DNA of 64,000 nucleotides from Chlamydiota bacterium (lineage in GTDB: Bacteria > Chlamydiota > Chlamydiia > Chlamydiales > FEN-1388): the NCBI GenBank assembly GCA_013287775.1, contig JABDDE010000002.1:11988-75987 (forward strand), given 5' to 3'. Positions 290 to 62,809 of this stretch are shown here, in pieces. Position numbers and translations under genes: made by a program. The notes beneath the pieces were generated by a model. The model was not told the origin of the DNA. It did no database searches and saw only the letters and a list, made by a program, of their open reading frames with translations. Each line of letters begins with the position of its first letter. Positions within the stretch are counted from its first letter, which is position 1.

Positions 290-685
290 TTATGTGTTTG
301 TACCCATTTGGCTCTTGCTACGCAGGACACCTTCAATATGCGCCATACGATTATCTAAAAGCCGTTGATTGTGATCAAGATTACCTACGGCTGCTTTTAC
401 TTCAGTAATTCCTTGAGTTAATCTTGATTCAAGGCTAGTCATGTCATATTTTAATCTTGTTTCAAGGCTATTCATATCGCCTTTTAATCTTGATTCAAGG
501 CTGTGTATATCATCTTTTAGTCGTGTGTCAAGTCTTGATTCAAGGCGTTGCATATCGTCTTTTAATCTCGTTTCAAGTCTCTCCATTTTTTCATTAGAGC
601 GGTGGTAAAAGAACCATACAATCGCCAAGATGGCAATGATATTCTGAATGTCAAAACCTTTTAAAAACTGTACTACCTCGTCCAT
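290..685 (-). CDS. membrane-anchored tandem-repeat (11-residue) coiled-coil protein
   Basis: ATG at 685 is preceded by AAAGGAG. N-terminal TM helix (IIAILAIVWFFY) is followed by five M/I-x-S/R-L-E-S/T-R-L-K-x-D repeats. The ORF-track extension to 796 runs through a palindrome and is unlikely. Confidence 0.6.
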   Translation of the reverse strand: MDEVVQFLKGFDIQNIIAILAIVWFFYHRSNEKMERLETRLKDDMQRLESRLDTRLKDDIHSLESRLKGDMNSLETRLKYDMTSLESRLTQGITEVKAAVGNLDHNQRLLDNRMAHIEGVLRSKSQMGTNT

Positions 686-760
686 ATTTTCTCCTTTTAG
701 GCCACTTGTGGCATAATGGCATCGTGATGATATGTAGCATAGCAATTTAGTGTTTTTTTT

Positions 761-799
761 GTCATGTGCAATTTTCCAAAAGGAAAATTTGTACATGAC
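761..799. repeat. PAL-1 palindrome (subtype A), near-perfect
   Basis: gtcatgtgcaattttcc-aaaa-ggaaaatttgtacatgac, 9 nt downstream of the permease stop at 809. Confidence 0.9.
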
Positions 800-2077: not shown

Positions 2078-2212
2078 AATTTCGTCTCTACATTATATCC
2101 TGGAGGCACCTTTTTTTGCAAATTTATTTTCCTTTGTATTTTTTTCTTGTCTAAAAAAATTCTTTTTGTTACACCGGAGCCTATATACAACCAAAATTAA
2201 CGGAGAGTATCT

Positions 2213-3382
2213 ATGTTAAAAAAATTATTTACATCGCTTATGTCTCTTGCGGTACTGGTAGTTTCAGTGCCGGAGATGCAGGCGGCAGAAATTCCTTTTT
2301 CTCGACATGAGTTGATTGCAAAAAGGACTGAAAGGACTGAGAGGACAGGCATTGAAATCTTAAAACGAGGCCCTCGTGGTGAGCGCGGCAAACGTGGAAA
2401 ACATGGAAAACATGGCAAAGCTGGCGCAACAGGTGCCACAGGCGCGACAGGTGCGCCAGGCCCAGTAAATTTTATTGCACCGCACGACCTATTTGTGGAT
2501 GCAGCAACGACCCAGGATCAGGCCACGGCAAATGGTACCCTTGCCATGCCCTTCAGCACGGTTCAGGCAGCGATTAATAGGGCCACAACCATACTTCAAC
2601 CCACAAATGCCACACAGTTTATCCTTGGTACTAGTATTTATATAGCCGGTAACACCTATTCTGAGAACCCAGTTATCAATGGTACCTCTAACCGAATTAC
2701 CCTTGTCGCTATGGGTGACGTGATTTTGGGCACTGGTGCTACGACGACAGTAACGTACAATCTTACGGGTGCCAATACGCAATTTGGAACGGAAATTAAC
2801 CCAGCGCTTATCATTGAAAGCTGGACATCCCATGATGCTCCGCAAACAGCATCATCGTTTGTGAGGAACAGTGGAACGCCCGCTTTTCGTTTGTTAGGTG
2901 CCATAGAAATTAATAACAATTCTAACGTGACAGTGAATCTTGTATTCAATGGGGAGGCAACCACTGTTATTCCCAATACCCCTCGTGTTGCTATGAATTT
3001 TTTTAATTCTATCATTCATAATGATTTGAATATAGGGGCAACTAATAACCTTGCAGATGCGGTAAATACTGTGTTTCTCGGTAACGTAATGGGTCAGATC
3101 CGCTATGCTAATGAGTGCGTCTTTGATGGCGGTCTGACGCTTACAAGTGATGTTGTCATTACTCAAGGGGCCGGGGAACAAATTGGCTTTATCAATTGTG
3201 AAATAAACAATTTTTTGAACGCTAATGGCTTTACATTTTTTGTAGATGCATTTACCAATTGTTGGTTAAAAGGTTCCAATGGCCTTTCACCAAGCCCTCC
3301 TAACTATTCGCCACCATTAGTAATGGGAGTGAATGTGATTTCTCCATTTAACAAGAAAATTATTGGCGATACAACACAATAA
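2213..3382 (+). CDS. secreted collagen-like protein with beta-helix-like C-terminal domain
   Basis: Signal peptide, Gly-X-Y run RGPRGERGKRGKHGKHGKAGATGATGATGAPGP (nt 2369-2464), then ~290 aa starting DLFVDAATTQDQATANGTLAMPF..VQAAIN..IYIAGNTY..ITLVAMG. GGAG RBS upstream. Confidence 0.8.
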   Translation: MLKKLFTSLMSLAVLVVSVPEMQAAEIPFSRHELIAKRTERTERTGIEILKRGPRGERGKRGKHGKHGKAGATGATGATGAPGPVNFIAPHDLFVDAATTQDQATANGTLAMPFSTVQAAINRATTILQPTNATQFILGTSIYIAGNTYSENPVINGTSNRITLVAMGDVILGTGATTTVTYNLTGANTQFGTEINPALIIESWTSHDAPQTASSFVRNSGTPAFRLLGAIEINNNSNVTVNLVFNGEATTVIPNTPRVAMNFFNSIIHNDLNIGATNNLADAVNTVFLGNVMGQIRYANECVFDGGLTLTSDVVITQGAGEQIGFINCEINNFLNANGFTFFVDAFTNCWLKGSNGLSPSPPNYSPPLVMGVNVISPFNKKIIGDTTQ

Positions 3383-3459
3383 CAAAAACGTCATGTTCGC
3401 ATTTTTTGTACGGGAAATGGTGCATGACGAAAACATTTAACACGCAAATGGGAGATTTT

Positions 3460-4656
3460 ATGATTAAAAAATATTATACAATTATCGTGGCTTTGATGCT
3501 AAGTACCTGTTTTATGGGGGATATCTCCGCTCGAGAGATTCCTTTTTCACGCGGTCAGTTATATGCCAAAAGGCGAGGCTCTGACATTGATAGATTGCAA
3601 GTGCTCAGAGGGCCTAAAGGGGAACGTGGCAAGCGAGGCAGGCATGGTAGAGATGGTAAACATGGAAAGCATGGAGCTGCCGGTGCAACAGGCGCGACCG
3701 GTGCGACAGGAGCCACAGGAGCCACAGGGGCACCGGGTCCAGTGAATTTTATTGCACCACATGATTTATTCGTCGATGCAGCAACCACACAAGACCAAGC
3801 GACAGCAAATGGTACTCTTGCTATGCCTTACAAAAGCATTCAAGCAGCTATTAATGCAGTTCCAATAGCAACCGACAGCGCTTCGTTTACACTGGGTACA
3901 ACTATTTATATAGCTGGCAATAACTACACTGCTGAAGACTTGACAATTAACGGAGATTCAAAACGCATCACCCTCGTCGCTATGGGGGATGTAGTTGTAG
4001 GCACAGGCAGTGCAGGATCGAGTTCAATAACGTGGTTCACTACAGGTGCAAATAATGATTTTACATCAGGTAAATTGACTACAACACTCACTATTGAAAG
4101 TTTGACGTCTTTGGATAATTCGCAAGCAACTGGGGCATCGCTTGCTATGGACGAAACTCCAGGAATACCTGCATTTCGTCTTCAATCGCAGATCACTGCA
4201 ACGACAGCATCGACGGATGATGTCAGCTTAGTAATCAATGCGGGGCTTCCTACTGTGGTTGCGACGGTAACGGGAAATGGCGACATGAATGTATTCTTCT
4301 ACAATTCTGTTGTTAACCAAGCCCTCAACCTCTCGTCATCGGGCGTGTCTATGAGTGCGGTTAATTCTGTGTTTCTAGGCAGTGTTACGGGCCTCATTCC
4401 GTATGCTTCACGCTCCTGTTTTGAGGGTGGGATAGTGCTTTCTGGCTCTACGATATATACTAGCGGAATTGGTCAGCGTCTTGGTTTCCAGGAATGCACA
4501 ATAAACACATCGTTCAATGGAGCGACCTTCGTTTTCTATGTTGATGCTTATACAAATAGGTGGCTAGAAAATAATGGAGGCACTCCAATTCCTGGGGTTC
4601 CTCAATTCACTCCAACCAACGTTGGTAATAAAGTAATTCTTGCTAGCGTAACCTAA
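3460..4656 (+). CDS. secreted collagen-like protein, paralogue of 2213-3382
   Basis: ATG at 3460 with GGAG 5 nt upstream. Signal peptide, 15 Gly-X-Y triplets (nt 3610-3741), and the same C-terminal domain start as the neighbour. Confidence 0.8.
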   Translation: MIKKYYTIIVALMLSTCFMGDISAREIPFSRGQLYAKRRGSDIDRLQVLRGPKGERGKRGRHGRDGKHGKHGAAGATGATGATGATGATGAPGPVNFIAPHDLFVDAATTQDQATANGTLAMPYKSIQAAINAVPIATDSASFTLGTTIYIAGNNYTAEDLTINGDSKRITLVAMGDVVVGTGSAGSSSITWFTTGANNDFTSGKLTTTLTIESLTSLDNSQATGASLAMDETPGIPAFRLQSQITATTASTDDVSLVINAGLPTVVATVTGNGDMNVFFYNSVVNQALNLSSSGVSMSAVNSVFLGSVTGLIPYASRSCFEGGIVLSGSTIYTSGIGQRLGFQECTINTSFNGATFVFYVDAYTNRWLENNGGTPIPGVPQFTPTNVGNKVILASVT

Positions 4657-4670
4657 ACCTATCATCCCAT

Positions 4671-4709
4671 TTACACTGATGGCGCTCCGTAAGGAGCCCA
4701 TCAGTGTAA
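4671..4709 (+). terminator. hairpin downstream of the collagen-like gene (terminator candidate)
   Basis: ttacactgatggcgctcc-gtaa-ggagcccatcagtgtaa, ~17-bp stem with one bulge, 15 nt after the stop. No clear U tract. Confidence 0.35.
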
Positions 4710-4830
4710 ATGTTCAGTGTAATTGTTCTTCTTGCCTTTTTCTCCCATCCTCCGTATCATATTTGTTACATCGAATAACAAATGAAATATTTTATTATTA
4801 ACATAATCTTAACAAATAGGGTTTACGGGT

Positions 4831-6471
4831 ATGAATTCTTTTATCATTAGCAAGCAGCTTGGTGTCATTGCGGACGAACTACAACATACAGCTGATGCCA
4901 CGCGCGTGGCAATACGACCAGGGCCACAGCGTCGCATCACCATACTACAAGAGTCCAATACATGGGCTGATTGTATTCATCGTCATATCTTGTGGATCGC
5001 ATCACAGATAGGAGCGCTTTTTGGCAAGACGATCCCCTATTCCATCTTAGCACCCGACGACATATCCACAACGCTGAGCTATTTGCAACACATCTTTGGC
5101 GCAAAGCGGCTGCAGCGCCTGGATAAGGCACTTTCCTTCAATCTTTCTGCAAAGGAGGGTTCTCGTGAATATTTTACACGCAAAGATGTGGCAAAGATTT
5201 TTGCTGGTGCTGAAGAGGTGACCTGGGAGGACATGCAGGAGCTCTTTCAGGAGATTAAAACCCCGAGTGCTGCTATTCGATATTTAACCATTATAGAGTC
5301 GGATGTACTTCGCAATACTTTTCGTGATGCTGCAACCCTTGATGGCTGCTGTAAGCGACAATATGATATGCTCAAGCGTCTCCTTGCTCCTTTTGCAAAA
5401 ATCGAGCATGCTTTCCTGCACTCTATGCCGGTTGCTCATCCGGTTATGGAAAGCACACTTACGGAGAAAAAGCTACGCTGCCTTACCTATCATGCGCTGC
5501 GGCACTACCATGCCGATGCTCCACACTTTTCATTTCTTGTGGCCAAAGAGCTCGCTGGGAGGGCTCTTCCGAAAGGAGTTCTTATCCCTCATCATTATGG
5601 TTATTTTGAAAACATGCGCTGCATTGAAGGTGGCGGCGAGCAAAAATACCTGCTCAAAAACCATGGCTCGCCTTGGGTGCCAAGTGCTGTGCTTTATCGA
5701 GGAACGAATCCTGGTAACCCGGCGTCGCTTGCGGCCCTCATTGCGCAGCATATCGGGGAAGATGGGATAAAAGTGAACTTTGAAGAGACTCTACGCTATC
5801 TCACCAGCCCGGCACTTGGATTTGTACGAAAGAGTGATGAGCCTTTGATGGCAATTGGCTTTAGTCAAGGAGGCTGCCATGCCTCATTGTGGTCACATCT
5901 TCTTCCGCACCGATTTCGTCATATCGTAACCATATGTGCGCCGGGCATTGAAAGGAACAAGGCTTTAGAATATGCGCAGCGTGTTGAAGGCTTAAATATC
6001 AAAATTGATCATATAGGGGAACCCGATGATGATATCGATCAATTTGGTGAGGCGCATCTTGGTGTGAATACATCTATTAGGAATGTCGAAGTATCGATTC
6101 ATATTGCCCATCCTGGTGCAGGACGCAGAGCTATCATTCATCGACTTCCTTGCCCTAAATCGATAGGAGCGGCCTTGGGCCGAATCCTCTTTGGCTACCC
6201 TGCAAGCCACTGTAGACCCGCTCTCGGACGCTCGCTTATCTTCACAAAGCTTTCTACGGCCGATGCGACGCAGGCACCGTTGGTTGAGCGATTCTTGTCG
6301 CACGATGGGGCCTTTCGAGATCAGATGTGGGAGCGATACCGAAAGATCTTTGCTGCTGCCATGCGGCGTGTGTTATTCGAATGGCAGACGTCAGTTAAAA
6401 ATGCGTATACTGGATTGCTGGAGCTGGGCGAACTCATGATGCAGGGCGCAGAAGAGGCAAGACCTGCATAG
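4831..6471 (+). CDS. large hypothetical protein with alpha/beta-hydrolase (lipase-like) nucleophile elbow
   Basis: 546 aa with no signal peptide. GFSQGG (G-x-S-x-G) in the C-terminal half. No other family recognised. Confidence 0.55.
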   Translation: MNSFIISKQLGVIADELQHTADATRVAIRPGPQRRITILQESNTWADCIHRHILWIASQIGALFGKTIPYSILAPDDISTTLSYLQHIFGAKRLQRLDKALSFNLSAKEGSREYFTRKDVAKIFAGAEEVTWEDMQELFQEIKTPSAAIRYLTIIESDVLRNTFRDAATLDGCCKRQYDMLKRLLAPFAKIEHAFLHSMPVAHPVMESTLTEKKLRCLTYHALRHYHADAPHFSFLVAKELAGRALPKGVLIPHHYGYFENMRCIEGGGEQKYLLKNHGSPWVPSAVLYRGTNPGNPASLAALIAQHIGEDGIKVNFEETLRYLTSPALGFVRKSDEPLMAIGFSQGGCHASLWSHLLPHRFRHIVTICAPGIERNKALEYAQRVEGLNIKIDHIGEPDDDIDQFGEAHLGVNTSIRNVEVSIHIAHPGAGRRAIIHRLPCPKSIGAALGRILFGYPASHCRPALGRSLIFTKLSTADATQAPLVERFLSHDGAFRDQMWERYRKIFAAAMRRVLFEWQTSVKNAYTGLLELGELMMQGAEEARPA

Positions 6472-58115: not shown

Positions 58116-58838
58116 TTAACTCGGTGTATAGTTGAATGATGCAGAAAATGCTGCAGGCTGGATATCAAACGTATTAAACCCGCTGGGGCTTATCACAACC
58201 GTGAGCATAGTTCCTGCGGTTACCAAAGCAGTATTGATAGTATTTTGAAATGTAGCAGTCAGTGGAGAGCCTGGACTGATCGACAAGGTGCCTGTACTTA
58301 GGGTAAGTGTAGTAGCCGTCCAACTCCCTAGAGGTACAGGTGTTCCAATTGGCGAACTCGATCCATATACAGTAAAAATAAAGGAGGGGCTAGCAGTTGC
58401 TGTAGATGAGATGTCGAGGCGTGCTGTGAGATTGGATATCGTGCCATCTGTTGGTACTAAGAAAGTACTGGTATAGATTGGCGGGACTGGAATAGTGGTG
58501 GTTGGATCAAACTGATCAGGAAGGTTCTGGCTATCGGATGGGTAAAAAGAAAAATCATAGTTCGGAACCACCGCAAGCGCCGTACTAAAAGGCACAGTTT
58601 GCCCTCTGGGATCTGCAGTCCCGGTGGCACCAGTGGCACCAGTCGCTCCTGTTCCGCCAACTCTACCACGAGGGCCTCTATGACCGCGGTGGCCTCGCCG
58701 CCCTCGCCTATGATGATGCTGGCTTTTTGCAATAAGCTCTTGAGGCATAACAGGGGTAAAAACGGGCTCTGCAAACATGTCAGAGCATGCAAAACTGAGC
58801 CATGCCGAGAATATAAAATAAAAAACTTGTTTTATCAT
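58116..58838 (-). CDS. secreted collagen-like protein with distinct ~160-aa C-terminal head
   Basis: Signal peptide, leader MPQELIAKSQHHH, and Gly-X-Y run RRGRRGHRGHRGPRGRVGGTGATGATGATG (nt 58602-58703). Confidence 0.75.
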   Translation of the reverse strand: MIKQVFYFIFSAWLSFACSDMFAEPVFTPVMPQELIAKSQHHHRRGRRGHRGHRGPRGRVGGTGATGATGATGTADPRGQTVPFSTALAVVPNYDFSFYPSDSQNLPDQFDPTTTIPVPPIYTSTFLVPTDGTISNLTARLDISSTATASPSFIFTVYGSSSPIGTPVPLGSWTATTLTLSTGTLSISPGSPLTATFQNTINTALVTAGTMLTVVISPSGFNTFDIQPAAFSASFNYTPS

Positions 58839-60600: not shown

Positions 60601-61332
60601 TTATCTAATCTGCTTAATGGTAACAAAAGCCGAAGCGGTACCCCCAAAGGCAACTAAGGGATCTACTAACTCAACAATGCCTCCTACATTCACTCCAGCC
60701 GCTACTATTTCAAATATAGTCGATGCTGGTACATTAAAAGTTAATGATTTCGTTGCCCAACCCTCTGCGCCTGCTGCTTGTGAAAGCCGGCTTTCTGTTA
60801 CTTCTACGCCATTAATACGTATGGCGATAACGGGATTGGTATCGCCGTTAGTACCAGTAAATCGCGCGCCGAATGTGACTTCATAATCACCTGCATCGGT
60901 AGTGACAAAAATACCACTGGGTGGGGTAAAACTAATAGAGCCTGCCGAATCGGTTACTACATTGAATTGTATTGCATCATTAGCAGTTATTGATTGATCG
61001 CTGAATCCGGAGCCATTTGCAACGACGCTAATAAAATTGTTGATGCCGCCACTGCCAGCAGGACCAGTCGCGCCAGCAGGACCAGTCGCACCAGTTGCTC
61101 CCGTTGCGCCCATTGCCCCAGTTGCACCCATTGTGCCTATGCCTCGCTGGCCACGGTGTCCGCGATGTCCGCGGTGACCACGATGCCCGCGTCGTCCCTT
61201 ATGATCATGCTTGCCTTTTGCAATCAACTCCTTAGGCATAGTTGGTTGGGTAAGCAGAGAGTCTGCAAATCCTTCTCGACACACAAAAAGTAATAGGAAA
61301 CAAGTAATAAAATAAAAAATTTTTCTAAACAT
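60601..61332 (-). CDS. secreted collagen-like protein with BclA/C1q-like C-terminal head (tentative)
   Basis: GGAGG RBS, signal peptide, leader MPKELIAKGKHDH, and (GHR)4 then GAT/GPA triplets (nt 61054-61197). The C-terminal ~140 aa are beta-rich (GDYEVTFGARF...). Confidence 0.75.
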   Translation of the reverse strand: MFRKIFYFITCFLLLFVCREGFADSLLTQPTMPKELIAKGKHDHKGRRGHRGHRGHRGHRGQRGIGTMGATGAMGATGATGATGPAGATGPAGSGGINNFISVVANGSGFSDQSITANDAIQFNVVTDSAGSISFTPPSGIFVTTDAGDYEVTFGARFTGTNGDTNPVIAIRINGVEVTESRLSQAAGAEGWATKSLTFNVPASTIFEIVAAGVNVGGIVELVDPLVAFGGTASAFVTIKQIR

Positions 61333-62460: not shown

Positions 62461-62503
62461 AAAATAGCGCGTGGATAATGTAAACGGAACATGGGAAAAA
62501 CAT

Positions 62504-62809
62504 ATGTTTGAATACACACAAATCATTGCCAATATTGTTATTGTCATCGCAACTGTAGCCTCGGGCTGTGCTTGGATGCTAAGCCGTCTCGATAAAAAAT
62601 TCGAGGCTACGGACAAAAAGTTCGAAGCAAGGTTTGAAGCTATGGACAGAAGGTTCGAGGCTGTAGACAAAAAGTTTGAAACAGTGCATAAAGATTTGGC
62701 CGAGATTAATGGTCGTCTTAGTGTTGTTGAAAACCGTCTTACTGCAGTAGAAACCATTCTAGCTATAATGGGAGCCCCTATTCGCAGTTTCAAAACCAAA
62801 GATACTTAA
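62504..62809 (+). CDS. membrane-anchored tandem-repeat coiled-coil protein (same architecture as 290-685)
   Basis: TM helix IIANIVIVIATVASGCAWML, repeats DKKFEA-TDKKFEARFEAMDRRFEAVDKKFETV, and a C-terminal NRLTAVETIL similar to NRMAHIEGVL in 290-685. Confidence 0.6.
   Translation: MFEYTQIIANIVIVIATVASGCAWMLSRLDKKFEATDKKFEARFEAMDRRFEAVDKKFETVHKDLAEINGRLSVVENRLTAVETILAIMGAPIRSFKTKDT

What the first reader, a model, noticed from the sequence alone, without database searches (positions are those of the whole stretch)
2213..4656. Tandem collagen-like genes with a basic His/Lys/Arg Gly-X-Y stalk fused to a beta-helix-like head; the stalk module is shared with two distant genes
Both genes encode the same domain order. 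It starts with a signal peptide, then a conserved leader (EIPFSR..L.AKR), then a basic triple-helix segment (RGPRGERGKRGKHGKHGK / RGPKGERGKRGRHGRDGKHGKHG). (GAT)3 or (GAT)5 and GAPGP follow, then a ~290-aa domain. The start of that domain (DLFVDAATTQDQATANGTLAMPF/Y..IQAAIN, IYIAGN.Y, ITLVAMGDV) reads like the cap and first rungs of a right-handed beta-helix of the pectin-lyase/DUF1565 type. The same leader plus basic collagen stalk (..ELIAK.. then RGHRGHRG.., GATGATGATG) reappears at 58116-58838 and 60601-61332 on unrelated C-terminal heads. That implies shuffling of a trimerising stalk onto different heads. The Gly-X-Y DNA consists of imperfect 9-bp repeats, and the GAT copy number differs between paralogues, which is compatible with slippage-driven length variation. 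A stalk-plus-beta-helix layout resembles tailspikes or fibres, but no phage genes are nearby.
Basis: partly seen in the sequence, partly recalled or inferred. Interest (0 to 1): 0.6.

Follow-up and report, generated by a model that had tools for sequence, protein, structure and literature searches.

The report
Chlamydial collagen-stalked fibres with beta-helix heads
An uncultured relative of Chlamydia carries two neighbouring genes for exported proteins with a short, positively charged collagen stalk and a phage-tailspike-like head; they are most likely surface fibres for gripping host cells, a design not reported for chlamydiae in the papers I searched.

Summary
Genes 2213-3382 and 3460-4656 are old paralogues (48% identity). 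Each has a Sec-type signal peptide, an EIPFSR..L.AK leader, 11 or 15 Gly-X-Y triplets (basic His/Lys/Arg part, then (GAT)3 or (GAT)5), and a ~300-aa head.

The head has no Pfam family. A head-only AlphaFold model (pTM 0.78) matches only right-handed beta-helix proteins: pectin methylesterases, lyases, tailspikes and tail fibres. Its first ~60 residues give sub-threshold profile hits to Pectinesterase, DUF1565 and a phage tail-protein PHROG.

The host is an uncultured chlamydial MAG. The signal-leader-basic-stalk module occurs 9 times in this genome on at least three head types (beta-helix, BclA/C1q-like, unknown). It is in all 23 genomes of its family and is rare elsewhere in the phylum. The head family is confined to that family.

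My best reading is Sec/type II-exported trimeric fibres that act as adhesins, analogous to Legionella Lcl, Bacillus BclA and phage tailspikes. Export, trimerisation, location and ligand are inferred, not shown.

This scan has already noted BclA-headed collagen fibres in other chlamydial genomes. The beta-helix head and short basic stalk are a new variant.

The parts
2202..2205 (+). Shine-Dalgarno GGAG, 7 nt upstream of the gene 1 ATG
   Evidence: Read from the sequence.
2213..3382 (+). Gene 1 (389 aa): signal peptide, leader, 11-triplet collagen stalk, beta-helix head
   Evidence: ORF list. Paralogue comparison. Family members in other assemblies.
2213..2284 (+). Gene 1 Sec-type signal peptide (aa 1-24, MLKK plus a 16-residue uncharged h-region); the cleavage site is not predicted by any tool
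   Evidence: Hydropathy gives KD12 2.46 and an uncharged run over residues 5-20. This is by inspection only.
2285..2368 (+). Gene 1 leader (aa 25-52, AEIPFSRHELIAKRTERTERTGIEILKR) containing the conserved hydrophobic-hydrophobic-[A/E]-K motif
   Evidence: The motif is present in 6 of 9 module genes, against 2.1% of background windows. It recurs as LIEK, VIEK or IFEK in other genomes.
2369..2467 (+). Gene 1 collagen-like region (aa 53-85): basic triplets GPR GER GKR GKH GKH GKA, then (GAT)3 at 2423-2449, then GAP GPV
2468..3379 (+). Gene 1 head (aa 86-389): neck/cap NFIAPHDLFVDAATTQ..GTLAMPF..VQAAIN, about 8 beta-helix coils, the VDAFTNCW motif and a C-terminal strand KKIIGD
   Evidence: AF2 model m59adc2fdb82d. 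Foldseek. Profile hits. Family alignment A4.
3460..4656 (+). Gene 2 (398 aa from ATG 3460; an alternative TTG at 3406 is unlikely); same architecture with 15 triplets
3610..3744 (+). Gene 2 collagen-like region (aa 51-95), with (GAT)5 at 3682-3726
3745..4653 (+). Gene 2 beta-helix head
   Evidence: Alignments A2 and A4. phrog_4577 E 9e-4.
4668..4712 (+). Strong hairpin 12 nt after the gene 2 stop; probably the terminator or mRNA end of the two-gene unit
   Evidence: Fold energy -34.3 kcal/mol, z = -9.9, 0 of 200 shuffles as stable. No comparable hairpin lies between the two genes.
58116..58838 (-). Distant gene with the same N-terminal module (..PQELIAKSQHHH RRGRRGHRGHRGPRG..GATGATGATG) and an unknown 160-aa head
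   Evidence: Profile E 1.3e-8. No Pfam or PDB hit for the head.
60601..61332 (-). Distant gene with the same N-terminal module and a BclA_C/C1q-like head
   Evidence: PF18573 E 7e-5 and 1.9e-5 on the head alone. PDB 1wck BclA E 4e-6. Profile E 1.1e-13.

Best explanation
The two genes encode exported, lollipop-shaped proteins that most likely assemble as trimers.

Shown:
- Each has a Sec-type N-terminus, a short conserved leader and a 33- or 45-residue Gly-X-Y stalk. The N-proximal half of the stalk is strongly cationic (8-9 Lys/Arg plus 2-3 His). The distal half is neutral (GAT)n.
- Each has a ~300-aa head predicted to be a right-handed beta-helix.
- Both genes are under purifying selection.
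- They belong to a lineage-specific family that exists in tandem arrays.
- The N-terminal module is reused on other heads.

Inferred:
- After Sec export, three chains register at the extremely conserved neck and head and zip the triple helix.
- The trimer leaves the periplasm through the type II secretion system that the genome encodes.
- It stays on the bacterial surface through the leader and the polybasic stalk base, which bind the anionic outer surface.
- The beta-helix heads point outward, about 10-13 nm of stalk plus the head, and bind a host (amoeba or other protist) surface polysaccharide or glycoprotein, as tailspikes, Lcl and BclA do.
- The variable body of the head sets ligand specificity, and paralogues widen the range.

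No polar residue is conserved along the central coils. I therefore favour binding over catalysis.
For: Selection. The 34 residues from GAPGPVNF to TLAMP are 100% identical between the paralogues, while 18 of 30 codons differ synonymously. The rest of the head is 30-50% identical. This indicates an old duplication, a strongly constrained neck and a diverging head body.

Fold. Full-length proteins also hit phage tail-fibre PHROGs across the collagen region and into the start of the head (phrog_5073, residues 52-209, E 1e-7).

Signal peptide. A KK n-region is followed by a 14-16-residue uncharged h-region, which is too short for a membrane anchor.

Export route. A secretin gene lies about 2.3 kb from a GspF gene on contig C5.

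Lineage.
- Three NTT transporter genes are present. The best hits are chlamydial MAGs at 70-75% identity.
- The module is in 23 of 23 family genomes, and in 8 of 199 others sampled in the phylum.
- The head is in 15 of 23 family genomes, and in 1 marginal hit of 199 others.
- Tandem arrays of the head family are also seen in L009 (3 genes), L070 (3) and G008 (2 and 3-4).

Precedent. Legionella Lcl is a type II-secreted lollipop-shaped trimer whose N-terminal region re-binds the bacterial surface and whose C-terminal trimer binds host glycosaminoglycans (PMC11162425).
Against: - No experiment, expression data or trimer model supports the reading. Only monomer prediction was available.
- Foldseek E-values against the PDB are weak (6e-3 or worse) and TM-scores are 0.3-0.5. 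Only the fold class is supported.
- The stalk is short and Pro-poor (3 Pro), so triple-helix stability is uncertain without the head.
- The leader shows no amphipathic-helix signal above shuffles. The Lcl-type anchor is therefore not reproduced, and surface retention is a guess.
- Signal-peptide cleavage was judged by eye.
- Some distant family members (P0006, P0007, P0030) have 22-23-residue hydrophobic N-termini that look like uncleaved anchors. That would place them in the periplasm.
- The host organism and any ligand are unknown.
Confidence: 0.55

Rival explanations
1. The proteins are secreted carbohydrate-active enzymes (esterase, lyase or depolymerase, as in tailspikes and CE8 pectin methylesterases) held as trimers on a collagen stalk. 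They would modify or digest a host or prey polysaccharide rather than only bind it.
For: The top structural and profile neighbours are pectin methylesterases, pectate, rhamnogalacturonan and alginate lyases, and depolymerase tailspikes. Family-invariant acidic residues exist: D11, E66 and D260 in head numbering.
Against: Pfam Pectinesterase hits are sub-threshold (at most 21 bits against a 27-bit cut-off). They cover only profile positions ~6-77, which is the N-terminal cap, and the two window genes do not hit at all. In the 25-member alignment, the central coils (head residues ~90-250) conserve only F140, A198, G222 and G240. There is no Q/D/D/R set like the CE8 active site. The invariant D, Y and E residues lie in the cap motifs FVD and G.Y.E, which are structural in this fold (established knowledge of pectin-lyase-fold proteins).
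Confidence: 0.2
2. The proteins are periplasmic or envelope-internal struts, not surface fibres. Trimeric collagen rods of defined length would link or space envelope layers of the chlamydial cell.
For: Only a Sec signal is evident, and no outer-membrane anchor or autotransporter domain is present. Some distant members have signal-anchor-like N-termini. The C80 paralogues have lipobox-like LLSC/FLSC sequences. The ~750-aa relatives in genus g7 end in a Cys-rich tail, which resembles disulfide-cross-linked chlamydial envelope proteins. Stalk plus head is of periplasmic dimensions.
Against: Rapidly diverging heads, tandem amplification and head swapping are typical of proteins that face an external partner. 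Stalk length ranges from 11 to more than 70 triplets within the head family, which does not fit a fixed spacer. A type II secretion system is available.
Confidence: 0.12
3. The genes are remnants or parts of a prophage, tailocin or contractile injection system tail fibre.
For: PHROG tail-fibre and tail-protein hits. PDB hits to Agrobacterium phage 7-7-1 tail fibres and tailspikes. A head-only relative lacking signal peptide and collagen (P0207) sits next to an endolysin-like gene in a high-GC contig.
Against: Both window genes have Sec signal peptides, which virion proteins lack. The neighbours are a Trp/Tyr permease, an alpha/beta-hydrolase-like orphan, a DUF155 protein and a methyltransferase. 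GC content matches the genome. No homologue was found in 50,697 phage records, IMG/VR or JGI metagenome contigs. The family is conserved across 6 genera of one chlamydial family.
Confidence: 0.05
4. The shared leader and stalk are a low-complexity coincidence, and the ORFs are not real genes.
For: Pairwise BLASTP of gene 1 against gene 60601 is not significant. Nucleotide alignments show little beyond the Gly-codon periodicity.
Against: Strong purifying selection acts on the neck. About 40 representative clusters of the head family exist in a library of 1.8 billion proteins. Both genes have good ribosome-binding sites. The order of basic then neutral triplets is conserved in 9 of 9 genes, and the leader motif is enriched.
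Confidence: 0.02

Closest known systems
Lcl, the collagen-like adhesin of Legionella pneumophila (PMC11162425)
   Same: Both come from Gram-negative intracellular bacteria of amoebae. Both have a Sec signal, a short N-terminal region, a collagen-like stalk with variable repeat number and a C-terminal trimeric head, giving lollipop-shaped trimers. Lcl is exported by type II secretion, which this genome also encodes, and is re-bound to the cell surface.
   Different: The heads are unrelated: no PDB sequence hit to Lcl-CTD. Lcl's N-terminal amphipathic helix is not reproduced here. The stalk here is much shorter and polybasic and His-rich. There are many paralogues with swapped heads, rather than one gene.
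BclA / BclA1-3 exosporium and endospore-appendage collagen-like glycoproteins (PDB 1WCK; Pfam BclA_C PF18573)
   Same: Both run from an N-terminal anchor region through a GXT-rich collagen stalk to a C-terminal trimeric knob. The Thr-rich triplets (GAT here, GPT in BclA) are potential O-glycosylation sites. Sister genes in this genome (60601, C23, C80a) have BclA_C-like heads.
   Different: The two genes of the finding have a ~300-aa beta-helix head, not the ~130-aa C1q/TNF-like jelly roll. The organism is Gram-negative and non-sporulating. A Sec signal peptide is present. No glycosyltransferase is adjacent.
Phage tailspikes and tail fibres with right-handed beta-helix receptor-binding domains (P22 TSP, CBA120 TSP2, Agrobacterium phage 7-7-1 fibres 9RKV; PHROG 4577, 5073)
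   Same: Both have a trimerising N-terminal rod followed by a parallel beta-helix. The cap motif is alike: LRVDEVTGDDATADGSLQKPYKTIVAAI in the 7-7-1 fibre against LFVDAATTQDPLTADGTLAKPYKTIQAAI in close relatives of the window genes. Collagen-like segments are common in tail fibres. Both show a conserved N-terminus with a variable distal part.
   Different: The proteins here carry a signal peptide. The genes are chromosomal and non-phage. Similarity is only sub-threshold and limited to the cap. No phage homologue is found by tblastn.
Pectin methylesterases (CE8, Pfam PF01095) and DUF1565 (PF07602), pectin-lyase-fold clan
   Same: The predicted fold is the same. The N-terminal motif is the same: P-F-x-T-I-Q-x-A-I ... 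I-x-I-x-x-G-x-Y-x-E.
   Different: Scores are below the curated cut-offs. The alignment stops after ~70 residues. The CE8 catalytic residues are not conserved.
C1q and collectins (eukaryotic defence collagens)
   Same: Both have a short N-terminal region, a collagen stalk and a globular trimeric recognition head. Both have tandem paralogue genes. The cationic collagen segment is reminiscent of the polyanion-binding collagen domains of scavenger receptors (recalled knowledge, not tested).
   Different: The heads are not homologous. This is a bacterial protein, and no hydroxyproline machinery was examined.

Membership tests
Collagen triple-helix repeat proteins (Pfam PF01391) | An uninterrupted (Gly-X-Y)n run scoring above the Pfam gathering threshold | tested here: met
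   Gene 2 scores 33.0 bits against a 27.2-bit cut-off. Gene 1 scores 24.6 bits, just below, but has 11 perfect triplets.
Collagen triple-helix repeat proteins (Pfam PF01391) | Formation of a trimeric triple helix | not testable with these tools
   Only monomer prediction was available. The test needs CD melting curves and SEC-MALS.
BclA family (collagen stalk plus BclA_C/C1q-like head) | A C-terminal BclA_C (PF18573) jelly-roll domain | tested here: not met
   Genes 1 and 2 show no BclA_C or C1q hit. Their heads are predicted to be beta-helices. The sister genes 60601, C23 and C80a give sub-threshold BclA_C hits of 1e-5 to 1e-7.
Pectinesterase CE8 (PF01095) | A profile match above the curated cut-off over the catalytic domain | tested here: not met
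   The window genes have no hit even at E 10. Relatives score at most 21.4 bits against a 27-bit cut-off, over profile positions 6-77 only.
Pectinesterase CE8 (PF01095) | Conserved catalytic Gln/Asp/Asp/Arg residues in the central coils | tested here: not met
   The only conserved central positions in the 25-member alignment are F140, A198, G222 and G240. No residue-level alignment to a CE8 enzyme beyond the cap could be obtained.
Right-handed parallel beta-helix (pectin-lyase fold) | The three-dimensional fold | tested here: met
   The test used a predicted model only: pTM 0.78. All top-50 PDB hits share this fold, with probability up to 0.96. BFVD gives E 2.8e-5 and TM 0.51. E-values are weak and no solved structure exists.
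Phage tail fibre or tailspike proteins | Homology to a phage tail protein family | tested here: inconclusive
   For phrog_4577, 23 of 25 heads score E<=0.01 (best 4.6e-9), and the window genes score 0.016 and 9e-4, over the first 60-70 residues only. tblastn against phages gives no match.
Phage tail fibre or tailspike proteins | Encoded among virion structural genes, with no secretion signal | tested here: not met
   The neighbours are non-phage. Sec-type N-termini are present.
Lcl-type type II-secreted collagen-like adhesins | A Sec signal plus a type II secretion system in the genome | tested here: met
   The signal peptide was judged by inspection and hydropathy. A secretin and GspF lie ~2.3 kb apart on C5. 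Actual secretion was not tested.
Lcl-type type II-secreted collagen-like adhesins | An N-terminal amphipathic helix that re-anchors the protein, and the Lcl C-terminal domain | tested here: not met
   The hydrophobic moment of the leaders is not above shuffles. No sequence match to any PDB chain of Lcl was found.

The most novel reading that the evidence does not exclude
One uncultured chlamydial family may have evolved a modular fibre toolkit. A conserved cassette of export signal, leader, polybasic stalk and neck would be combined with interchangeable receptor-binding heads (tailspike-like beta-helix, C1q/BclA-like jelly roll and others). The genes would then be amplified in tandem arrays. 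These include a strict three-gene B-A-C unit repeated nearly four times in a relative, which suggests C1q-style heterotrimers. The repertoire would act as a host-range-determining adhesin set, the cellular counterpart of phage receptor-binding-protein swapping. The His-rich cationic stalk might add pH-dependent attachment inside the acidifying phagosome.
Probability: 0.22. Interest if true: 0.75.

Novelty: new variant of a known kind. Interest (0 to 1): 0.5.

Why it matters
How environmental chlamydiae attach to and choose their protist hosts is largely unknown. The adhesins known from Chlamydia (OmcB, Pmps; recalled knowledge) do not explain it.

These genes point to a lineage-wide, rapidly diversifying family of collagen-stalked proteins with tailspike-like or C1q-like heads. 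That gives concrete candidates for attachment and host specificity. It also adds a new head family, which has no Pfam model, to the bacterial collagen-like proteins. It is a clear case of phage-style domain swapping in cellular surface proteins.

The very short, Pro-poor, His/Lys/Arg-rich triple helix would also interest collagen biophysics and protein design, if it folds.

I found no paper in the searchable library that mentions collagen-like proteins of chlamydiae.

Tried and rejected
- Amphipathic-helix anchor in the leader, as in Lcl-N. The hydrophobic moment is no higher than in shuffles, so I rejected it.
- Nucleotide-level relatedness of the four N-terminal modules. The alignment shows only Gly-codon periodicity. 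Synonymous sites are saturated even between the tandem pair, so the test is uninformative.
- Gene conversion as the cause of the identical 34-aa neck. Rejected, because 18 of 30 codons differ synonymously.
- Close relatives elsewhere. Pattern scans with alignment A2 found none in 185,579 GTDB species genomes, IMG/VR or JGI metagenome contigs. P0207 found none in IMG/VR. The head found nothing in 50,697 phage records by tblastn. The diverse alignment A4 could not be used for pattern scans.
- The search for homologous proteins with the full-length alignment. It was swamped by collagen words. The head-only alignment returned 5 proteins. The exhaustive HMMER search was the useful one.
- First AF2 model, full length with 5 sequences. 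It was poor, with pLDDT 55. It was replaced by the head-only model.
- 16S rRNA. It is not in the assembly. Identity was inferred from the NTT transporters instead.
- Cluster look-ups gave no names.
Expression and read-level repeat variation could therefore not be examined.
- The promoter scan found nothing convincing upstream of gene 1. The one '+' site near gene 2 overlaps its start codon.
Full report
**Observation**

The window holds two same-strand ORFs at 2213-3382 (389 aa) and 3406/3460-4656. For gene 2, ATG 3460 is the likely start. It is preceded by GGGAG and gives an MIKK N-terminus like the rest of the family. Gene 1 has GGAG upstream.

The proteins are 48% identical, E 4e-97. Each reads as follows:
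- a KK n-region and a 16-residue uncharged h-region;
- a leader, AEIPFSRHELIAKR.. or REIPFSRGQLYAKR..;
- 11 or 15 perfect Gly-X-Y triplets, whose first part is GPR/GER/GKR/GKH-type (9-11 basic residues) and whose last part is (GAT)3 or (GAT)5 followed by GAP-GPV;
- a head of about 300 residues.

Pfam sees only Collagen, at 24.6 and 33.0 bits against a cut-off of 27.2. TRF reports period-9 arrays in both stalks. A strong hairpin (-34 kcal/mol, z -9.9) follows gene 2, and none separates the genes. This suggests one transcription unit (inference).

**Are they real genes?**

Yes. Across the neck (GAPGPVNFIAPHDLFVDAATTQDQATANGTLAMP) the paralogues are 100% identical in protein, while 18 of 30 codons differ synonymously. 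Elsewhere in the head identity falls to 30-50%. This means an old duplication, saturated silent sites, a very strongly constrained stalk-head junction and a diverging head body. Gene conversion is excluded.

**Organism**

The assembly is 2.17 Mb in 128 contigs, 73% complete, 44% GC. The collagen genes have the same composition. It encodes three NTT nucleotide transporters. The closest NTT relatives, at 70-75% identity, are MAGs labelled uncultured bacterium, Chlamydiae or Parachlamydiaceae. It is therefore an environmental chlamydia.

Its family in the genome collection has 23 species-level genomes. Two of them map to unnamed MAGs (CAZOAJ01, CAYRUD01). Named Parachlamydiaceae (HS-T3, SSA5, a Parachlamydia sp.) lack the module.

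**The head**

A direct search of 5.8 billion clustered proteins found only one relative, P0002. It lies on a 4-kb Logan contig with three tandem family genes. An exhaustive HMMER search of 1.8 billion representatives found 88 hits, about 40 of which cover the head.

The family signature is FVD..T....DGS(I/L)..P(F/Y).TIQ.AI(N/D), then ..I.IA.G.Y.E.L.I.G..(K/R)RI.LVALG.V.L, and near the end VD.(Y/F)TN(Y/F)W. The invariant residues are V10, D11, G23, P28, A35, Y64, E66 and D260 in head numbering.

The first full-length AF2 model was poor, with pLDDT 55.

Foldseek against the PDB returned only right-handed parallel beta-helix proteins in the top 50. These were pectin methylesterases, pectate, rhamnogalacturonan and alginate lyases, AlgE4, phage 7-7-1 tail fibres and tailspikes. 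Probability reached 0.96, the best E was 6e-3, and TM-scores were 0.3-0.37. BFVD gave E 2.8e-5 with TM 0.51 for an unnamed viral protein, then phage tail fibres and tailspikes and giant-virus pectinesterase-like proteins.

The head profile against PDB sequences hits pectinesterases (E 0.0027) and phage 7-7-1 and Milano-type fibres (0.024-0.034). All hits fall on the cap motif. Scanned one by one, 14 of 25 heads hit Pfam Pectinesterase (best 8e-5), 3 hit DUF1565, and 23 hit phrog_4577 'tail protein' (best 4.6e-9). The window genes score 0.016 and 9e-4. All of these are below curated cut-offs and confined to the first 60-70 residues.

I conclude that the fold class is well supported and that membership of CE8 or DUF1565 is not. 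The central coils conserve only hydrophobic and Gly positions. A conserved active site is therefore unlikely.

**The shared module**

The genome has 12 collagen-like ORFs. Nine share the following layout:
- M-(L/I/F)-K-K signal peptide;
- a leader usually containing hydrophobic-hydrophobic-[A/E]-K, in 6 of 9 genes against 2.1% of background windows;
- basic His/Arg/Lys triplets;
- GAT/GAP triplets.

Their heads differ:
- beta-helix in the two genes of the finding;
- BclA_C-like in 60601-61332, C23 and C80a, at sub-threshold E 1e-5 to 1e-7, with 1wck at 4e-6;
- unknown in 58116-58838.

Pairwise significance is uneven. Gene 1 against a C80 paralogue gives E 4e-5, and the alignment runs through the neck. 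Gene 1 against 58116 gives 1e-3. Gene 1 against 60601 is not significant. A profile built without these genes finds them at 1e-13 and 1e-8, but collagen composition inflates such values.

A model of the module finds it in 23 of 23 family genomes, at 1-11 copies, on ORFs of 210-870 aa. It is found in only 8 of 199 other genomes sampled across the phylum, and in none of 28 small Chlamydiaceae-sized genomes. The head family is in 15 of 23 family genomes, spanning 6 of 12 genera. Outside the family there is one marginal hit in 199 genomes.

Neighbours of family members differ from locus to locus, so there is no conserved operon partner.

**Stalk length**

Head-family relatives in G008 carry more than 70 GXT triplets (GTTGATG...). 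One of these repeats contains an assembly gap. The stalk therefore varies at least six-fold in evolution. This fits repeat expansion and contraction.

**Mechanism**

The following are shown: the architecture, purifying selection, the predicted fold, lineage restriction, tandem amplification, module reuse, and the presence of a secretin gene about 2.3 kb from GspF.

The following are inferred:
- Sec export.
- Trimerisation nucleated at the neck and head.
- Type II secretion.
- Retention on the anionic cell surface through the leader and the polybasic stalk base.
- Outward-facing beta-helix heads binding a host glycan.

The closest working analogue is Legionella Lcl. It is a type II-secreted lollipop trimer whose N-terminal region re-binds the bacterium and whose C-terminal trimer binds glycosaminoglycans (PMC11162425). 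Lcl's amphipathic N-helix is not reproduced here, and the heads are unrelated.

BclA and phage tailspikes are the other models. The Thr-rich GAT triplets could be O-glycosylated as in BclA (established for BclA; speculation here).

The rivals are an enzyme on a stalk, a periplasmic strut and a phage remnant. They are weighed in their own sections.

**Literature and earlier scan notes**

No paper in the searchable library links collagen-like proteins with Parachlamydiaceae or chlamydiae.

Notes of this scan report BclA-headed collagen fibres in other chlamydial genomes, often beside glycosyltransferases. I did not test those notes. They make the general theme less surprising within this project.

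**Verdict**

This is a new variant of the bacterial collagen-like surface protein theme. It has a previously unannotated, lineage-restricted beta-helix head and a reusable N-terminal module. Function and location remain inferred.

Noticed in passing
L100 = G009:C1:17500-30500 (relative, MAG CAYRUD01): There are eleven tandem collagen-like genes (263-345 aa) on one strand. Three head types recur in strict order, B-A-C three times and then B-A. Type A ends ..GKGHFSIKRIY, type B ends ..GSFSIKKIG and type C ends ..GNFSIRRISPL. Type B is weakly BclA_C-like. This looks like a C1q A/B/C-style three-gene cassette amplified nearly fourfold, and it hints at heterotrimers.
   Followed up: partly
G000 contig C80:970-3560 (own genome, outside the window): Four tandem 220-228-aa collagen-like genes alternate between two subtypes. 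They have lipobox-like LLSC/FLSC signal peptides and a Cys immediately before the triple helix. One of the four heads tested gives a BclA_C-like hit.
   Followed up: partly
G000 contig C52 (own genome, outside the window): Three further collagen-like genes belong to a different class. They have 22-23 triplets with Cys inside the Gly-X-Y run and an acidic/basic GERGERGKRG end. Their ~130-aa heads have no Pfam hit.
   Followed up: no
L014:1141-3336 (G017, genus g7) and orthologues in 9 species: These ~750-aa versions of the beta-helix-head protein have a His6 run before the stalk. The head is split by a ~250-aa Ser/Thr/Lys-rich low-complexity insert. The C-terminal tail is Cys-rich (..CPPEVTTCQPGVPAGCPTTAECTGCLPCVQ).
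   Followed up: no
L071:6961-8079 (P0207; Logan SRR17639018, high-GC contig): This head-family relative has no signal peptide and no collagen stalk. It has an extra ~100-aa C-terminal domain and sits directly after a PG_binding_1/endolysin-like gene. It may be a phage-borne cousin of the head.
   Followed up: partly
window 4668-4712: A perfect 15-bp-arm hairpin with an inner 5-bp stem (-34 kcal/mol) lies 12 nt after the gene 2 stop.
   Followed up: partly
window 4831-6471: This 546-aa orphan lies downstream of the pair. It has only a weak alpha/beta-hydrolase match (PF00561, E 7.5e-5, residues 335-382) and no signal peptide.
   Followed up: no
window 290-796 and 62471-62809: Small proteins with tandem coiled-coil-like repeats flank the region (period-33 and period-21 DNA repeats in TRF).
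   Followed up: no
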